Below, in pieces: positions 3-22,321 of a stretch of DNA of 32,000 nt. This DNA is from Promethearchaeota archaeon (GTDB lineage: Archaea; Asgardarchaeota; Odinarchaeia; Odinarchaeales; JBHLKK01), in contig JBHLPL010000001.1 in the NCBI GenBank assembly GCA_048939465.1, forward strand, positions 60,001 to 92,000, given 5' to 3'. The position numbers and the translations under genes are program-made. The notes under the pieces were generated by a model, which saw only the letters and a program-made list of their open reading frames with translations, was not told the origin of the DNA and searched no databases. Numbering within the stretch: position 1 is the stretch's first letter; the number at the start of each line of letters is the position of its first letter.

Positions 3-425
3 TTTCTATCTGGCCTTGGCATATTATTGCTCGCGTGGATTCTGATCGTTTTTGCATTCTGGACAATCTCCAGAGTGACTGGAGGAAAAGGATCATATCG
101 AGCAACCTTTCTGGTCACAAGCTATGCCTTTGCCCCTCTTATAATCGCAAGGTTAATTTCTCTGGTTGTCTTGGCAGGTGGACTCCCAAGCGTTACCATT
201 ACCGAAGCCATGGCTCCTGGAGAATTGGGCACAGCACTGATACCTTTACTCAATTCTGTAGTCTGGACTTATTCCCTTGGTGTTGAGACTTTCTTTTGGC
301 TTTGGTCTGCACTGCTTTCTTCATTGGCAATAAGAGAAACTCAGAATACGTCAACTCTCAAAGCGGTAGTAATGGCTTACGCTGTTATCATATGCTCTCT
401 ACTAATACTTTGGACAATTCATTGA
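3..425 (+). CDS. Yip1-domain membrane protein (5'-truncated by window edge)
   Basis: Frame is open from base 3. Hydrophobic multi-TM protein with SRVTGGKGSYRATFLVTSYAFAP, matching the Yip1-family GGkG.y...f.v..Ya..P pattern. Confidence 0.65.
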   Translation, partial: FLSGLGILLLAWILIVFAFWTISRVTGGKGSYRATFLVTSYAFAPLIIARLISLVVLAGGLPSVTITEAMAPGELGTALIPLLNSVVWTYSLGVETFFWLWSALLSSLAIRETQNTSTLKAVVMAYAVIICSLLILWTIH

Positions 426-492: not shown

Positions 493-1488
493 TCATCGGA
501 TCATCACTATGAGTTTGATGGGACTGGCCAGATTCTTATCATTAACAAAAATGAGATCTCCTTCTTTCACTCCGGTATCTTTCAATACGATGCTATCCGG
601 GACAATCTTGCCCTCGATAATAATCTCAGGATTCTGAAGGCCATAGGTCATTATCAGCCTGTTTTTTAATTCTTGAATGGGTTCTTCCAGGTTCACGACA
701 TATTTGACGCCTACGGTGCGGTACTTAGGACTGCAAACAACACAGCTCGGATTACGGACAAGCCTAATCTTTGTAAAAGACTGGCTCAATCCATCGTAAA
801 ATAGATAGTTGTCAAGCAGATCCTTGCGTTCTAAAATAATCTTTAGCGTTTCTTGTGCTTGGATTCCTCCGACTACTGTAGTTGTTGTGGAAATCATTGG
901 AAATTTCTCCTTCTCTTGCTCTTTCTCTTTTCGCGCCTCTCCAGGAAGAGTACAGGCCTTCTGTAATCTTTCTTTTGGTATCAATGGTTGGCATTCCAGG
1001 CAGGGCGTTTCAAAGGGGATGATTACCTGAACGTTCCCCCACCAGCCAAATAATCCTCCATGAATTAGAGGCTTATTCAAGTGAACACACATGGAATTCA
1101 GCCATCTGCGTGCCTCAAAAGTATCTAAGCCTTCCACGATGACCGAACTTCTCTGGTAGACTTCTTTATCTATCGACCGCATATCCTTCATATAGGTACT
1201 TACCTTGACTTCCGGATTGAGTTTCTCAAGGAATTCCTCAGCAGCCTCCACTTTCAATCTTCCAATATCTTCTTCTCTGAAAAGTATTTGTCGGTTCAAA
1301 TTCGAAAGCTCAATTGTGTCGTTGTCTATAAGAATCAACTTTCCTATTCCCATCAACGCCAGATCAAGAGCAACTACCGAGCCTAAAGCCCCCACTCCTA
1401 CGACCAAAACCGTTGAATTGCGAATCAATCCTTGGTCCCATTCTTCGAGAAGTTCCTGTCTATGATAACGACCTTCTCCTTCTTTCAA
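493..1488 (-). CDS. Ubiquitin-activating enzyme E1 (ThiF/MoeB/UBA fold with C-terminal ubiquitin-fold domain)
   Basis: RYHRQ, GVGALGS nucleotide-binding loop, DNDTIELSNLNRQ, Zn pairs CLEC/CVVC, putative catalytic Cys in ACTLPG, C-terminal beta-grasp-like segment. Start refined to TTG 1488 (SD GGAGGGG, TTGA overlap with E2 stop); ORF track starts at 1515. Confidence 0.93.
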   Translation of the reverse strand: MKEGEGRYHRQELLEEWDQGLIRNSTVLVVGVGALGSVVALDLALMGIGKLILIDNDTIELSNLNRQILFREEDIGRLKVEAAEEFLEKLNPEVKVSTYMKDMRSIDKEVYQRSSVIVEGLDTFEARRWLNSMCVHLNKPLIHGGLFGWWGNVQVIIPFETPCLECQPLIPKERLQKACTLPGEARKEKEQEKEKFPMISTTTTVVGGIQAQETLKIILERKDLLDNYLFYDGLSQSFTKIRLVRNPSCVVCSPKYRTVGVKYVVNLEEPIQELKNRLIMTYGLQNPEIIIEGKIVPDSIVLKDTGVKEGDLIFVNDKNLASPIKLIVMIR

Positions 1489-1955
1489 GCCTGCCCCCTC
1501 CTGAGGTGTTTCCAAGTAGCATACCTTTTGATATACTCTTTTACTTTCTCCTTGAATTCTCTTGGCGACTCACGCATTTCCTTTGCAGCCACTCGATTCA
1601 GAGGGTCGTGAGGGTTGGGAAAGCTCAGGACGTTTCTTATGGCCTCGATTACGCCAACTAAATTTATGCTTGGAGACCAATCTTTCCCCAGAATGCCCAG
1701 ACATATTCTTCCCTCCCTGGTGATATTTGGATGCCAAATTGGAGTCAAGAACCGAGCTTTGGGAGGTTTAAATGGATAGCTTCTGTCTACTTCTAACTCG
1801 ATTTGGAAGACCCCTCCATCGTAAACACTGGTACCTAGAATGAATCCACGCCATTTTGTGAGGTCTCCACTTAGCGGTTGAAATGAAGGTTCCTCCTCCT
1901 CTATGCTCTTAGCTTCAAGTGCCAAGCGCTCTAAGAATGCCTCTCTGTCTAAAAT
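1485..1955 (-). CDS. Ubiquitin-conjugating enzyme E2 (UBC)
   Basis: YPFKPP, HPN and catalytic Cys (IWHPNITREGRICLGILGKDWSP), PNPHDPLN. Frame extends upstream of the TTG at 1925 through LDREAFLERL; start probably ATT 1955 (see findings). Confidence 0.95.
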   Translation of the reverse strand: MLDREAFLERLALEAKSIEEEEPSFQPLSGDLTKWRGFILGTSVYDGGVFQIELEVDRSYPFKPPKARFLTPIWHPNITREGRICLGILGKDWSPSINLVGVIEAIRNVLSFPNPHDPLNRVAAKEMRESPREFKEKVKEYIKRYATWKHLRRGQA

Positions 1956-2010
1956 CTTTCCATACCTCCCTCTGAATATGTAAAATCACAAAGAAATAAG
2001 TATGTGAAAA

Positions 2011-2024
2011 ATATTAAAACCTTA
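2011..2024 (-). promoter_or_regulatory. Putative BRE/TATA promoter of the E2-E1 operon
   Basis: Minus strand TAAGGTTTTAATAT, near-identical to TAAGGTTTAAATAT upstream of the SSB gene. Confidence 0.5.
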
Positions 2025-2101
2025 TAGTTCAGGATCGATCCTCCTGAATGATACGGCCTTCTATCCTCCAGATGAAAGATCCTAAGCGAAATAGAAAGTA
2101 T

Positions 2102-2344
2102 TTAAGGATCTCCTCCTTCGGTTCTAGTAATAAGATACACCTTATCTCTTTCGACGCACCCTGCTTCTTTAAGTGTCGTACTATCCAGCTGTTCCATACC
2201 TTTGAATGCAAGGACAAAGGTTGCTTCTGGTATACGTCTCTGTCTGGCAATTATTCTCTTGAGTTCACCGAATGAAATATTAGGCGCCACATCAAGTGTG
2301 GTCTTCATTCCACCAATTGCAGAGACAATCTCTACCTCCATCAT
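2102..2344 (-). CDS. Ubiquitin-like modifier (pro-form with GG followed by DP)
   Basis: 80-aa beta-grasp pattern ending YLITRTEGG-DP*; clustered with E1/E2/RING genes; SD GGGGTGA. Confidence 0.93.
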   Translation of the reverse strand: MMEVEIVSAIGGMKTTLDVAPNISFGELKRIIARQRRIPEATFVLAFKGMEQLDSTTLKEAGCVERDKVYLITRTEGGDP

Positions 2345-2359
2345 AAATCACCCCAATTA

Positions 2360-2599
2360 CTATTTTACCATAAGATGTCTAGTGGAGAGTTTTCTTTTGC
2401 AGAAGGGACATTGGCCCTTCGTCTTAACCCATTCCAGCAGTTCAATCTTGTGAGCTTGGCTTCCGCAGTATGGACAGTATATTGTCTTCTCGCCGGGTCT
2501 TATTGGCAGAAGGCAAACGATGCACCTTTCTGGCTCCCAAAGCCACTCTCCTAAGACTCTAACTTGCTTTATTACGAATCTGTCAGCTGCCTTCGACAT
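2360..2599 (-). CDS. Small RING-finger protein, putative E3 ligase
   Basis: C-x2-C-x12-C-x2-C-x4-H-x2-E-x3-W-x6-C-P-x-C; directly upstream of ubiquitin on the same strand; resembles archaeal small RING finger E3s. Confidence 0.85.
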   Translation of the reverse strand: MSKAADRFVIKQVRVLGEWLWEPERCIVCLLPIRPGEKTIYCPYCGSQAHKIELLEWVKTKGQCPFCKRKLSTRHLMVK

Positions 2600-2649: not shown

Positions 2650-2742
2650 AATGCCCCCACTCGGGGCAGTTCAGACTCTTTGCTCTGAATTGATCATCTC
2701 CTACAGCCTTGGAATTGCAGATTAGTCGAAAAACCAACAGAG

Positions 2743-3474
2743 CTAACCCCCCAAAACCTCTTCAAACATATCAAGCAAAACATAGCGAGTTGAGGGATCA
2801 ATGGCAACAGTTCCATAAGTTGGCACACCCAATAGTCTTCCCACAAGTTCTGGGTCCAATGAGTGGGGAAGGTCTTGTTTGTTTGCAATTGCAACAACCT
2901 TTGCATCAGGAACACGTTCTTGGACGAGGCTCATGATTCTCTTCCTGGTCCTGGCTACACTCGTTACAGACGAGTCCGTAACAACGATGATAATATCTGA
3001 GCCCCTGATCATTACGTCCCAGAATCGACCAAATCGTTCTTGTCCAGCGAAATCCCACACGATCACTTTTACTGGCGTTTCCACCCCTTCGAGATTTTTG
3101 ATATTGACCATTAGGGTAGGAGTATGGTTTATGGGAACTTCTTCATCAAAAAGCAATTTCAGCAGTGTTGTCTTGCCTGCACCGCCAAATCCCAAAAAGG
3201 AGACCTTAATGATCCTCATTAGCTGGCTTACGGAAAGTCTCATCTTACAGAAGGGACATTTACCTTTGGTCTTAACCCATTCAAGTATTTCTCTTCTGTG
3301 AGCAATACATCCACAGTTTGGGCAGTCTATTGTCTTATCGTTAGGTCCTATTGGCAGAAGGCATACTATGCAATTCTTCGCTCCCACTTTTTCCACCCAG
3401 TCTTCCGATCTGTGGATATTGCAGAGCGTCAAATCGATTAGGAAATCCTGTCTCTCTTCACTGGGCCACCTCAA
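2743..3474 (-). CDS. RING finger-small GTPase (Arf/Rab-like) fusion protein
   Basis: RING (CIVC...CPNC...H..E...W...CPFC) in one frame with G1 GFGGAGKT, G2 PT, G3 WDFAGQ and G4 NKQD. The true start may be the later GTG (MGAKNC...). Confidence 0.85.
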   Translation of the reverse strand: MRWPSEERQDFLIDLTLCNIHRSEDWVEKVGAKNCIVCLLPIGPNDKTIDCPNCGCIAHRREILEWVKTKGKCPFCKMRLSVSQLMRIIKVSFLGFGGAGKTTLLKLLFDEEVPINHTPTLMVNIKNLEGVETPVKVIVWDFAGQERFGRFWDVMIRGSDIIIVVTDSSVTSVARTRKRIMSLVQERVPDAKVVAIANKQDLPHSLDPELVGRLLGVPTYGTVAIDPSTRYVLLDMFEEVLGG

Positions 3475-3701
3475 ATCTTACAAGATTTTGTAGCCTAACT
3501 ACATAATTGACACTTGTAGTATAAAAGATTTGTGATGCGCTATTAATTCACAGCAAAGAAGTGTGTAAAACACGGTAACCCGCGGTTTCTTTGTTTAGAG
3601 TGAGTTGAAGGTACGATTAAATCTCCTTTGAGTAATTGAGTACTACGAATGTTTTTAAGTATTCTACTACAAATATGTATTGCGTTTGTGAGGGACTGAA
3701 T

Positions 3702-4184
3702 TTGAGCAGTTCAAAGCGGAAGCAATTTGAGATAAAGCTTGAAGTAATCAAAACTCCTAAGGGTGAAGTTCCCACGGTCAAAAGCTTAAGGCAGGTAGTT
3801 ATGGGTCTAAATGAATTGAATAGTGATATCGTTAATGTGAGGTCTCAGATTATGGGGGAAATAAAGGATTTAAAGCGTGATGTTACCGCAGTAAAGAAGT
3901 TGCTTGCCGAAGAGGCGGTTACTTTTGATGCCATCAATGAGAAGTTCACAGACCTTAACAACAGCTTGGAGTCTCTATTAAAGCAAAAAACAGATGATAA
4001 AACCCTGAAGGCTGTTAAGGGGGTAGGGGCTACTCTAAACTCTCTTGAGACTCAGCTTTCTGAAATGGCGAAAAATGTGAAAGATGGACTTGCGGAACAG
4101 GCCAAAAATGTTGCTAATGCCGTAGGCAAACTCTACCTTTTCCTTGAAAAGGCAGAAGAAGGAAAGAAGAAAAAGACCTCCTAG
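3702..4184 (+). CDS. Hypothetical coiled-coil protein
   Basis: Heptad-rich body after a short N-terminal beta-rich head (FEIKLEVIKTPKGEVPTV). Start refined to TTG 3702 (SD GAGGGA + 6 nt); ORF track starts at 3636. Confidence 0.75.
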   Translation: MSSSKRKQFEIKLEVIKTPKGEVPTVKSLRQVVMGLNELNSDIVNVRSQIMGEIKDLKRDVTAVKKLLAEEAVTFDAINEKFTDLNNSLESLLKQKTDDKTLKAVKGVGATLNSLETQLSEMAKNVKDGLAEQAKNVANAVGKLYLFLEKAEEGKKKKTS

Positions 4185-21463: not shown

Positions 21464-22321
21464 ATGATTCATTCGGTTTATGTAATCCGAAGGACAGGAG
21501 AATGCCTATTCTCCAGAGTATATGATAAGAACGGAATCGACGAAGCCCTAATATCCGGCTTCTTAAGCGCTCTACAATCTTTCATAAATGAAATCAGTGG
21601 AGATTATGTAAGGACTCTGAAAACTGGAAATGTGAAATTTGTCTATAATTTACTGGATGATCTGATATTCGTATTCTGCGTCGATCTAGAAGAAGATGAG
21701 GAAAAACTGAGAAAGAAGATAAATCTCACTCAGAGTGTCTTCGTAAGGAGATTTGGCAGCATAATAGAAGGCTGGAATGGTCAAACCAGCATCTTCGAAT
21801 CCTTCAATGTAACAGTAGATGACATTGTTACAGATCTCGTAAAGGTATCCGTAATTGGATTTGGGGGTGTCGGTAAGACGACTCTCCTCAAGCTTATTCT
21901 AAGGGAAGAAGTTCCCGTACAACACATTCCAACAATAGCGGTTGATATCAAAGATCTTAACGGTGTAAAATCCCCGGCAAAGGTGGTCATGTGGGATTTT
22001 GCTGGACAACAGCGTTTTGAATCCCTTTGGGATGTGATGATTAAAGGCTCAGACGTTATTCTAATTGTTACGGATTCTTCCATGTTAAATATAGTAAAGA
22101 CCAAGAAAAAAATCATCTCCCTCATTAAAGAGCATAATCCCGGCGCGAGAGTTATTGCTATTGCAAACAAACAAGACCTTCCGAATTCGATAAAGCCAAG
22201 AGCAATTAGTGACCTTCTAGGCGTACCGGTTTATGGAATTGTCGGCATAGACCCTTCAAATCGAGGGCAATTGCTTGAGATAATAGGCGATACTGTTAAT
22301 AGCTGGCTAGAATATTCATAA
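21464..22321 (+). CDS. Longin domain-small GTPase (Arf-like) fusion
   Basis: N-terminal MIHSVYVIRRTGECLFSR...LISGFLSALQSF longin pattern; G1 GFGGVGKT, G3 WDFAGQ, G4 NKQD. Confidence 0.88.
   Translation: MIHSVYVIRRTGECLFSRVYDKNGIDEALISGFLSALQSFINEISGDYVRTLKTGNVKFVYNLLDDLIFVFCVDLEEDEEKLRKKINLTQSVFVRRFGSIIEGWNGQTSIFESFNVTVDDIVTDLVKVSVIGFGGVGKTTLLKLILREEVPVQHIPTIAVDIKDLNGVKSPAKVVMWDFAGQQRFESLWDVMIKGSDVILIVTDSSMLNIVKTKKKIISLIKEHNPGARVIAIANKQDLPNSIKPRAISDLLGVPVYGIVGIDPSNRGQLLEIIGDTVNSWLEYS

What the first reader, a model, noticed from the sequence alone, without database searches (positions are those of the whole stretch)
2743..3474. RING E3-small GTPase fusion next to the ubiquitin operon
Seen: one frame joins a RING to a complete Arf/Rab-like G domain with no linker (KMRLSVSQLM-RIIKVSFLG). 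The RING is ~69% identical by hand count (36/52) to the standalone RING just downstream, with obvious DNA similarity between ~2400-2525 and ~3250-3372. The G domain is ~60% identical to the longin-GTPase at 21464. Known: human TRIM23/ARD1 combines a RING with an ARF domain. Inference: a nucleotide-switched E3 ligase that could tie GTPase-marked membranes to ubiquitination, probably a lineage-specific chimera of two duplicated modules.
Basis: partly seen in the sequence, partly recalled or inferred. Interest (0 to 1): 0.85.

Follow-up and report, generated by a model that had tools for sequence, protein, structure and literature searches.

The report
RING E3 fused to small GTPase
An Asgard archaeon carries a real, conserved gene that joins a ubiquitin-ligase RING finger directly to a small GTPase switch, built within one genus from two neighbouring genes of its ubiquitin-ESCRT cluster; this is an independent archaeal counterpart of human TRIM23.

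Summary
One frame on the minus strand joins a RING finger to a complete small-GTPase domain with about 3 linker residues. The fusion is not an assembly error. Independent metagenome contigs cross the junction without indels. Three further lineages of the same genus carry the same fusion at 68-86% identity, and none has a Met at the junction. Both halves are under purifying selection (dN/dS 0.13-0.19).

One correction: the CDS most likely starts at GTG 3387 (214 aa), not TTG 3474.

Origin is well supported. The RING is a tandem copy of the adjacent solo RING E3 and shares a genus-specific His-to-Glu change at zinc ligand 6, but it has lost the conserved N-terminal loop. The G domain branches with the genus's own ESCRT-linked longin-GTPase and has a fixed switch II change.

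Among 400 genomes of the phylum and the 150 best RING relatives from 1.84 billion protein representatives, no other RING-to-GTPase fusion of this kind appeared. I found no paper describing it.

A GTP-switched E3 ligase is the best reading, but it is inferred, not shown. I class it as a new variant of a known kind (compare TRIM23, RNF112).

The parts
2743..3387 (-). Most likely CDS of the RING-GTPase fusion (214 aa, GTG start, TAG stop at 2743-2745)
   Evidence: ORF. Start inferred from orthologues and from L037, where an ATG replaces the GTG and the upstream frame is closed. Fusion conserved without stops in G001, G002 and L037.
3217..3387 (-). RING domain (residues 1-57 of the 214-aa form): C-x2-C-x12-C-x2-C-x4-H-x2-E-x10-C-x2-C
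   Evidence: Pfam zf-RING_2, E 1.6e-5. AF2 model of the RING alone has pLDDT 88.8. Foldseek matches RING/U-box E3 domains at TM 0.69-0.78.
3202..3225 (-). Junction (..QLM-RIIKV..): the end of the RING tail helix runs into strand beta1 of the G domain with about 3 linker residues
   Evidence: Sequence. AF2 secondary structure shows helix 53-56 then strand 60-66. Logan contigs of runs X4 (2870-3292) and X6/X10 (2749-3267) cross it with 0 gaps. Relatives have I/V instead of M at this place.
2746..3216 (-). Small GTPase (Arf-like) G domain, residues 58-214; G1 GFGGAGKT, G2 PT, G3 WDFAGQ, G4 NKQD, G5 AIDPS
   Evidence: Pfam Arf 73.2 bits. Alignment A3. Closest solved sequences are Arl2/Arl3/Arf1 and Asgard ArfRs. 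Foldseek agrees.
3388..3474 (-).
   Evidence: the same stretch in L037 carries a TAA and indels. G001 and G002 have only 3 open codons upstream.
3393..3398 (-). Shine-Dalgarno-like GGGTGG, 5 nt before GTG 3387
   Evidence: Sequence. The equivalent GGGCGG precedes the ATG in L037. This is inference.
3489..3526 (-). Putative own promoter: TTTTATA box (3520-3526) followed by a 15-nt palindrome TGTAG-TTAGG-CTACA (3489-3503)
   Evidence: Sequence. The TATA box is conserved in L037; of the palindrome, the arms are kept and two loop bases differ. Function is inferred.
2729..2733 (-). T5 tract 9 nt after the stop codon; possible archaeal terminator, which would make the fusion its own transcription unit
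   Evidence: Sequence only. Inference.
2360..2599 (-). Solo RING E3 (79 aa), donor paralogue of the RING; keeps the N-terminal RFVI..GEW.W loop that the fusion lacks
21464..22321 (+). Longin-GTPase (285 aa), donor paralogue of the G domain
   Evidence: tree.
493..2344 (-). Ubiquitin (2102-2344), E2 (1485-1925) and E1 (493-1515): the presumed enzymatic partners
   Evidence: Pfam. E2 keeps the HPN..C active-site motif.

Best explanation
This is one real gene (2743..3387, 214 aa) for a two-domain protein. An N-terminal RING finger of the Asgard ubiquitin-operon E3 type is joined, almost without a linker, to a switch-competent Arf-like small GTPase domain.

Shown or strongly supported:
- It arose in the ancestor of this genus. 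The RING gene of the E1-E2-Ub-RING operon was duplicated in tandem. The copy lost the conserved N-terminal loop (reported for a Helarchaeial homologue to help bind the substrate UEV-Vps23). It gained the G domain of the longin-GTPase that sits in the same ubiquitin-ESCRT supercluster, in place of that protein's longin domain.
- Both halves have since been kept under purifying selection.

Inferred:
- The RING recruits the local E2~Ub.
- The G domain replaces the lost substrate-binding loop as the targeting or regulatory module. Ligase action would then be directed to whatever binds the G domain in one nucleotide state, or be gated by that state.
- Because the RING is attached directly to beta1, where Arf proteins carry their nucleotide-sensitive N-terminal helix, the coupling could be conformational.
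- The fixed switch II change (FESLW to FGRFW) suggests partners different from those of the parent GTPase.

My separate odds: real single gene about 0.97; origin as described about 0.85; GTP-governed E3 function about 0.45. The confidence given is for the whole statement.
For: Reality of the fusion:
- Open frame.
- Logan contigs from runs of other studies cross the junction without gaps, and no indel is listed.
- Orthologues in G001 and G002 (68-70% identity over the 214-aa form, no stops), in L037/P0002 (86%) and in the P0003 cluster all carry both domains.
- Their junctions read ..QLIKVIKV.. and ..ELVDIAKV.., with no Met.
- dN/dS for G001 versus G002 is 0.19 (RING) and 0.13 (G domain).

Origin:
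- G003 (1,418,269 bp; same size as Ca. Odinarchaeum LCB_4, PMC9246712) has E1-E2-Ub-RING followed directly by the coiled-coil gene, with no fusion. All four lineages of the genus have the fusion inserted there.
- In the G-domain tree the fusions form one clade (100/98) that groups with the genus's own longin-GTPases (93/93), apart from those of genus g2.
- In the RING tree, fusion and solo RINGs of the genus group together (83/89).
- The His-to-Glu change at ligand 6 is shared only by the genus's solo and fusion RINGs.
- Orthologous RING DNA is more alike than paralogous RING DNA.

Competence:
- The RING fold matches RING/U-box E3s.
- The I/V, W, CP and K positions are kept.
- G1-G5 and the catalytic Gln are kept in all fusions.
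- The complex model of the local E2 with the fusion RING scored 0.72 against a best control of 0.39. That mark was reached by 58 of 80 solved complexes and 2 of 110 mismatched pairs. The runs agree in at least 0% of contacts and the partner's pLDDT is at least 75.
- The N-loop's role in substrate binding comes from bioRxiv 10.1101/2023.07.25.550441.
- The longin-GTPase is linked to the Ub-ESCRT cluster both here and in G003.
Against:
- Zinc ligand 6 is Glu instead of His, and the Pfam RING score is below the curated cut-off (25.5 versus 27.3). The solo RING that passes the cut-off has the same Glu.
- The predicted E2 contact lies on E2 residues 10-16, 27-32 and 138-142 (beta-sheet side and C-terminal helix), not on the canonical helix 1/loop 4/loop 7 surface. 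One of three runs scored 0 and one control reached 0.39. E2-RING is also a textbook pair that can pass from memory.
- No membrane anchor is visible: no N-terminal amphipathic helix and no C-terminal Cys motif.
- The switch I/interswitch part of the model has low confidence (pLDDT 50-60), so nothing can be said about domain coupling.
- The gene occurs in one genus only, so it cannot be central to Asgard biology.
Confidence: 0.5

Rival explanations
1. The fusion is real, but the RING half is not a ligase. It would act as a zinc-finger adaptor that docks a GTPase onto the E2 or another ubiquitin-system part, or as a decoy that competes with the solo RING E3. The protein would then be a GTPase regulator or sensor of the ubiquitin pathway rather than an E3.
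For: Ligand 6 is Glu, and the Pfam RING score is below the cut-off. The N-terminal substrate-binding loop is lost. The predicted E2 contact is non-canonical, on the E2 backside, as known for regulatory backside binders (my own knowledge).
Against: The same Glu is present in the solo RING, the only other E3 candidate of the operon, so it is probably tolerated. The I/V, W, CP and K positions used by active RINGs are conserved under purifying selection. The fold matches active RING E3s.
Confidence: 0.22
2. TRIM23-like self-regulation: the main substrate of the RING is its own G domain, and auto-ubiquitination controls the GTPase cycle, rather than the GTPase directing the ligase to other proteins.
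For: [quoted passage not shown] Here the two domains are only about 3 residues apart.
Against: There is no shared descent with TRIM23. The very short linker may make it hard for the RING-bound E2~Ub to reach lysines of the same chain, so this would need action in trans between molecules. I have no data on dimerisation.
Confidence: 0.12
3. Artefact or decay: two adjacent genes joined by an assembly or sequencing error, or a recent non-functional chimera on its way to loss.
Against: Contigs of independent runs agree without indels. Four lineages at 68-86% identity keep one frame, three of them without the ATG. dN/dS is 0.13-0.19 in both halves.
Confidence: 0.02

Closest known systems
Human TRIM23/ARD1 (RING, B-boxes, coiled coil, C-terminal ARF domain)
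   Same: One chain carries an N-terminal RING E3 module and a C-terminal Arf-type G domain. TRIM23 is described as having both E3 ligase and GTPase activity, with cross-talk between them (PMC12075517).
   Different: The fusion has no B-box or coiled coil, only about 3 linker residues. It is 214 aa long, whereas TRIM23 is much longer (length from my own knowledge). Its origin is independent, from local paralogues within one archaeal genus. The RING belongs to the Asgard C4-H-(H/E)-C2 family. No activity has been shown.
Asgard ubiquitin-operon small RING E3 (solo RING at 2360-2599; Helarchaeial homologue shown to ubiquitinate UEV-Vps23, bioRxiv 10.1101/2023.07.25.550441)
   Same: The RING core is 67% identical. 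It lies in the same operon neighbourhood and has the same unusual Glu at ligand 6.
   Different: The fusion lacks the conserved N-terminal RF.I..G.W.W loop and carries a C-terminal G domain instead.
Asgard longin-GTPases (called Rag-like or Arf-like in PMC10933270 and bioRxiv 10.1101/2020.10.19.343400)
   Same: The G domain is 59% identical to the paralogue at 21464-22321 and nests with the genus's copies in the tree.
   Different: The longin domain is replaced by a RING. Switch II has changed from FESLW to FGRFW in all fusions.
RNF112 (RING plus dynamin-superfamily GTPase; PMC12012479)
   Same: Another RING plus GTPase protein in animals.
   Different: Its GTPase is a large dynamin-type domain, not a small Ras-superfamily G domain. 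It is unrelated by descent.
ESM Atlas clusters with Ras/Roc plus a RING Pfam family (389-aa cluster of 56 members, taxa not recorded; nematode cluster of 291 aa)
   Same: These are leads that RING plus small GTPase architectures arose more than once.
   Different: Feature scores are 0.83-0.85, which counts as a lead only. The RING families differ (zf-RING_UBOX, zf-C3HC4). I did not examine them.

Membership tests
RING-type E3 ligase domain (Pfam zf-RING_2, RING-H2-like) | Profile match above the curated cut-off | tested here: not met
   25.5 bits against a cut-off of 27.3, E 1.6e-5. The paralogous solo RING scores 29.5 and passes.
RING-type E3 ligase domain (Pfam zf-RING_2, RING-H2-like) | Eight zinc ligands in cross-brace spacing | tested here: inconclusive
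   Seven Cys/His ligands are conserved. Position 6 is Glu in this genus and His in nearly all relatives. Whether Glu binds zinc cannot be told from sequence.
RING-type E3 ligase domain (Pfam zf-RING_2, RING-H2-like) | RING/U-box fold | tested here: met
   AF2 pLDDT 88.8. Foldseek matches EL5, RNF165, RNF13, RNF38 and TRAF6 at TM 0.69-0.78, rmsd 1.1-2.6.
RING-type E3 ligase domain (Pfam zf-RING_2, RING-H2-like) | E2-contact residues (hydrophobic between ligands 1-2, helix Trp, Pro after ligand 7, basic residue after ligand 8) | tested here: met
   C-I-V-C, LEW, CPFC and K are present. The first three are conserved in all fusions; the basic residue is M in G001. Their roles are taken from my general knowledge of RING E3s.
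RING-type E3 ligase domain (Pfam zf-RING_2, RING-H2-like) | Binds an E2 and stimulates ubiquitin transfer | tested here: inconclusive
   The complex model passes the mark (0.72 against a best control of 0.39; 58 of 80 solved and 2 of 110 mismatched pairs reach it; runs agree in at least 0% of contacts; partner pLDDT at least 75), but at a non-canonical E2 surface. Activity cannot be tested here.
Arf-family small GTPase (PF00025) | Profile match above cut-off and G1-G5 motifs with the catalytic Gln | tested here: met
   73.2 bits against 22.3. GFGGAGKT, PT, WDFAGQ, NKQD and AIDPS are present and conserved in all fusions except one P-loop residue (A or V). Best solved relatives are Arl2/Arl3/Arf1 at 1e-15 to 1e-11.
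Arf-family small GTPase (PF00025) | N-terminal amphipathic (often myristoylated) helix that couples nucleotide state to membrane binding | tested here: not met
   The RING occupies the N-terminus right up to beta1.
Arf-family small GTPase (PF00025) | GTP binding and hydrolysis | not testable with these tools
   Needs a biochemical assay.
TRIM23 / tripartite-motif family | RING, B-box and coiled-coil tripartite motif | tested here: not met
   Only RING and G-domain families are found. About 3 residues lie between them.
TRIM23 / tripartite-motif family | Common descent with metazoan TRIM23 | tested here: not met
   Both halves derive from paralogues of the same genus.
Asgard longin-GTPase family | G domain within the family's clade | tested here: met
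   Tree (93/93 with the genus's longin-GTPases).
Asgard longin-GTPase family | N-terminal longin domain | tested here: not met
   No longin hit in the fusion. The parent has Fuz_longin_1.
Asgard ubiquitin-operon small RING E3 | Conserved N-terminal loop (RF.I...G.W.W) ahead of the RING | tested here: not met
   Alignments A2 and A6: present in the solo RINGs and many relatives, absent from all fusions.

The most novel reading that the evidence does not exclude
The fusion may be a 'Rosetta stone'. It would show that, in Odin-like Asgard archaea generally, the ESCRT-cluster longin-GTPase and the ubiquitin RING E3 act in one pathway. A small GTPase would mark the place or time at which ESCRT cargo or adaptors are ubiquitinated. 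That would be an archaeal forerunner of the GTPase-ubiquitin-ESCRT logic of eukaryotic endosomal sorting, hard-wired into one polypeptide in this genus.
Probability: 0.2. Interest if true: 0.8.

Novelty: new variant of a known kind. Interest (0 to 1): 0.55.

Why it matters
Asgard archaea encode many small GTPases and a eukaryote-like ubiquitin-ESCRT cluster, but how these systems talk to each other is unknown, and almost nothing about them has been tested.

A natural, selectively maintained fusion of the operon's E3 module with the G domain of the cluster's own longin-GTPase is genomic evidence that the two systems are functionally linked.

It is also a compact (214 aa), probably soluble protein. 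With the adjacent E1, E2 and ubiquitin genes it gives a complete, directly testable set for asking whether nucleotide state can gate ubiquitin transfer in an archaeal system.

It further shows convergent evolution of the RING plus Arf-like architecture otherwise known from metazoan TRIM23.

Its limits are that it occurs in one genus only and that domain shuffling among Asgard eukaryote-like proteins is already known to be common.

Tried and rejected
- RNA evidence: no RNA holder was listed among the runs. Nothing can be said about expression.
- Raw reads: only Logan contigs could be laid, not raw reads. X6 and X10 show identical pieces and may be one data set, and X1 may be the source of the window.
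- Split form in G003: the match with an internal TGA turned out to be the solo RING read through its stop, not a RING plus GTPase pair.
- The search for related loci in genome contigs left out the window's own genus and returned only longin-type or plain GTPases. Those whose matches began inside the RING range have no CxxC motifs.
- Other Asgard RING hits with long open frames are C-terminal RINGs on proteins whose sequences show a hydrophobic, membrane-anchor-like segment (read by eye); they have no G domain.
- Gene conversion between the two RING copies was considered because RING dS is lower than G-domain dS. I rejected it because orthologous RING DNA (73-89%) is more alike than paralogous RING DNA (66-75%).
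- The TTG 3474 start was rejected.
- Run 1 of the complex prediction scored 0.00 and one control scored 0.39.
- The relative orientation of RING and G domain could not be inspected, because only summary confidence is returned.
- Only the best 150 of 1,640 RING relatives were checked for a G domain. The reverse order (GTPase then RING) was not searched systematically.
- Literature searches found no description of an archaeal RING-GTPase. Absence from the held library is not proof.
- Taxon label: one sister MAG is deposited as 'Candidatus Hodarchaeota archaeon' and others as 'Promethearchaeota archaeon'. The genome tool places the window in the same order as a 1,418,269-bp closed genome that matches Odinarchaeum LCB_4 by size. 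I could not resolve this.

Full report
**1. What is there**

On the minus strand an open frame runs from 3474 to 2743 (243 aa). Pfam finds a RING finger at residues 34-77 (zf-RING_2, E 1.6e-5, 25.5 bits, just below the 27.3 cut-off). It also finds a complete small-GTPase domain at 83-217 (Arf 73.2 bits; also Roc and Ras). The two parts meet at ...SVSQLM-RIIKVSFLGFGGAGKT.

Downstream on the same strand lie a 79-aa solo RING (2360-2599), ubiquitin (2102-2344), an E2 (1485-1925) and an E1 (493-1515). Further along the window are ESCRT-III, Vps4, Vps25, a Vps22/36-like protein and a longin-GTPase at 21464-22321.

- RING versus solo RING is 36/54 = 67%.
- G domain versus the longin-GTPase is 88/149 = 59%.
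- The RING DNA similarity is real.

**2. Is the fusion real?**

First, contigs assembled independently from public metagenome runs cross the junction without any gap or indel. These are X4 at 2870-3292 and X6/X10 at 2749-3267, besides X1, which may be the source. X6 and X10 show identical pieces and should count once. The runs are mangrove and sediment metagenomes.

Second, relatives have one gene, not two:
- The two other species of the genus held in the genome collection (G001, G002) carry a collinear RING-GTPase frame. It covers residues 28/31-241 of the query at 67-71% identity without stops, or 68-70% over the 214-aa form.
- A fourth lineage (P0002, contig L037, 86% identical) and the P0003 cluster carry both Pfam domains as well.
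- In these relatives the junction reads ..QLIKVIKV.. or ..ELVDIAKV...
- Nei-Gojobori dN/dS between G001 and G002 is 0.19 for the RING and 0.13 for the G domain. Both halves are under purifying selection.

**3. Start codon**

The orthologues begin 4-5 residues before the first zinc ligand (MVKQNC, MVTENC, MGTKNC) and have no room for an extension. In L037 an ATG stands exactly where G000 has GTG 3387, preceded by the same GGG(C/T)GGAAAAA. The stretch equivalent to 3388-3474 there contains a TAA and indels that are not multiples of three. The CDS is therefore most likely 2743..3387 (214 aa), which is the length gene callers gave to P0001 and P0002.

Upstream there is a TTTTATA box (3520-3526), conserved in L037, and a palindrome (3489-3503) whose arms are conserved there. 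A T5 tract follows the stop codon. This suggests, by inference only, that the gene is its own transcription unit beside the operon.

**4. Origin**

In G003 the order is E1-E2-Ub-RING, followed at once by the divergent coiled-coil gene, then UEV-Vps23, Vps28, Vps22/36, Vps25, Vps4, two ESCRT-III genes and the longin-GTPase. G003 is in the same order as the window's genome but in another family. It is a closed genome of 1,418,269 bp, the size published for Ca. Odinarchaeum yellowstonii LCB_4 (PMC9246712). It has no fusion. In all four lineages of the window's genus the fusion sits between the solo RING and the coiled-coil gene.

A maximum-likelihood tree of G domains puts the fusions in one clade (100/98). 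That clade groups with the genus's own longin-GTPases (93/93), apart from those of genus g2 and from two other paralogue groups.

A tree of the 55-column RING core groups fusion and solo RINGs of the genus (83/89), apart from the G003 RING. Resolution is low, as expected for so few columns.

A sharper character is the sixth zinc-ligand position. It is His in almost every relative but Glu in both the solo and the fusion RINGs of this genus only. RING DNA is more alike between orthologues (73-89%) than between paralogues (66-75%), so the duplication predates the four lineages and was not homogenised later.

I add two observations:
- The RING copy lost the conserved N-terminal loop (RF.I..G.W.W) of the solo RING family.
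- Switch II changed from FESLW (all longin-GTPases) to FGRFW (all fusions).

**5. How widespread?**

A search with the RING plus P-loop segment in 400 genomes of the phylum (85 genera) found a match running from the RING into the P-loop only in G000, G001 and G002. All other matches stop at the end of the RING.

A RING profile searched against 1.84 billion protein representatives gave 1,640 hits. Of the best 150, only the fusion's own cluster contains a G domain. Other Asgard members of this RING family are small solo proteins or C-terminal RINGs on membrane proteins.

The ESM Atlas offers two leads to other Ras plus RING clusters, one from nematodes and one unrecorded. I did not examine them.

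**6. Competence of the parts**

*RING.* The RING alone models with pLDDT 88.8 and matches solved RING and U-box E3 domains at TM 0.69-0.78. It keeps the hydrophobic residue between ligands 1 and 2, the helix Trp and the CP motif in all fusions. The basic residue after the last Cys is kept in all but G001, which has Met.

*G domain.* The G domain keeps G1-G5 and the catalytic Gln. By sequence it is closest to Arl2/Arl3/Arf1 and to solved Asgard ArfRs, and by fold to Arf, Arl, Rab and Rac proteins. The full-length model has pLDDT 81.6 and pTM 0.67. Confidence is low in switch I and the interswitch, and helix 53-56 runs straight into strand 60-66.

*E2 contact.* A complex prediction of the local E2 with the fusion's RING scored 0.72 against a best control of 0.39. 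That mark was reached by 58 of 80 solved complexes and 2 of 110 mismatched pairs. The runs agree in at least 0% of their contacts and the partner's pLDDT is at least 75. However, the contact is on E2 residues 10-16, 27-32 and 138-142, not on the canonical RING-binding surface, and RING-E2 is a textbook pair. I take this as weak support only.

**7. Mechanism**

Shown:
- A single, conserved gene.
- Its origin from two local paralogues.
- Intact motifs in both halves.

Inferred:
- The RING recruits the operon's E2~Ub.
- The G domain has replaced the N-terminal loop as the targeting or gating module. In a Helarchaeial homologue that loop helps to bind UEV-Vps23 (bioRxiv 10.1101/2023.07.25.550441).
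- Nucleotide state therefore decides where or when ubiquitin is transferred.

The attachment point, directly on beta1 where Arf proteins carry their nucleotide-sensitive N-terminal helix, makes conformational coupling plausible (my own knowledge of Arf proteins). The parent longin-GTPase is linked to the Ub-ESCRT supercluster both here and in G003. This makes ESCRT-related targets the first candidates.

Rivals are a non-catalytic RING adaptor or decoy, and TRIM23-like auto-ubiquitination of the G domain (PMC12075517). An artefact or pseudogene is practically excluded.

**8. Comparison and novelty**

The architecture works like TRIM23 but is not a member of that family. It has no B-box or coiled coil, and it arose independently within one archaeal genus. 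RNF112 is another RING plus GTPase protein, but with a dynamin-type domain (PMC12012479).

Papers on Asgard GTPases, ESCRT and ubiquitin that I searched describe longin- and roadblock-GTPase fusions and solo RING E3s, but no RING-GTPase. In NCBI the orthologues are named only 'GTP-binding protein'.

I rate it a new variant of a known kind. It is of moderate to good interest as a Rosetta-stone link between small GTPases and ubiquitination in Asgard archaea and as a compact test system. It is limited by its narrow distribution.

Earlier first readers of this scan noted the same fusion on this stretch.

Noticed in passing
window 2102-2344 (-): The ubiquitin gene ends ...TEGGDP: two residues follow the Gly-Gly, so it is a pro-ubiquitin that needs C-terminal processing. 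A similar tail is described for a Helarchaeial ubiquitin (bioRxiv 10.1101/2023.07.25.550441). No deubiquitinase was looked for.
   Followed up: no
window 2360-2599 and 3217-3387 (-): Both RING copies of this genus have Glu at zinc-ligand position 6, where nearly all 1,640 relatives sampled have His. This is either a tolerated ligand swap or a three-ligand site.
   Followed up: partly
window 3489-3526: TTTTATA box followed by the palindrome TGTAGTTAGGCTACA. The TATA box is conserved in the sister lineage L037; of the palindrome, the arms are kept and two loop bases differ. Position relative to the TATA box suggests an operator over the transcription start.
   Followed up: partly
window 3636-4184 (+); L013 5445-5897; L014 8069-8581: A coiled-coil protein of 150-182 aa with only weak Pfam hits is conserved divergently next to the RING gene in both genera. 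It may be the uncharacterised asCOG005522 neighbour mentioned in bioRxiv 10.1101/2023.07.25.550441.
   Followed up: no
window 21464-22321 (+); L013 12136-13032 (-): The longin-GTPase that donated the G domain lies at the edge of the ubiquitin-ESCRT supercluster both here and in the Odinarchaeum-sized genome G003. This conserved linkage suggests it works with ESCRT.
   Followed up: partly
G000:C73:15310-15756 (-); G002:C179:4143-4589; G001:C25:16782-17246: A small-GTPase paralogue matches with one in-frame TGA in G000 and G002 and two in G001. This could be a read-through of the gene end, a pseudogene or a recoded codon.
   Followed up: no
window 1485-1515: The E2 and E1 genes overlap by 31 nt, as also in L037 (2083-2107). 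This suggests translational coupling.
   Followed up: no
whole genome: Taxon labels disagree. A sister MAG's protein is deposited under 'Candidatus Hodarchaeota archaeon', yet the genome tool places the window in the same order as a 1,418,269-bp closed genome that matches Ca. Odinarchaeum LCB_4 by size.
   Followed up: partly
window 3-425 (+): A Yip1-domain membrane protein lies beside the E1 gene. It is conserved at the same place in L037, and genes of the same size and position (261 aa) sit there in G001 and G002 (no family search run on them).
   Followed up: partly
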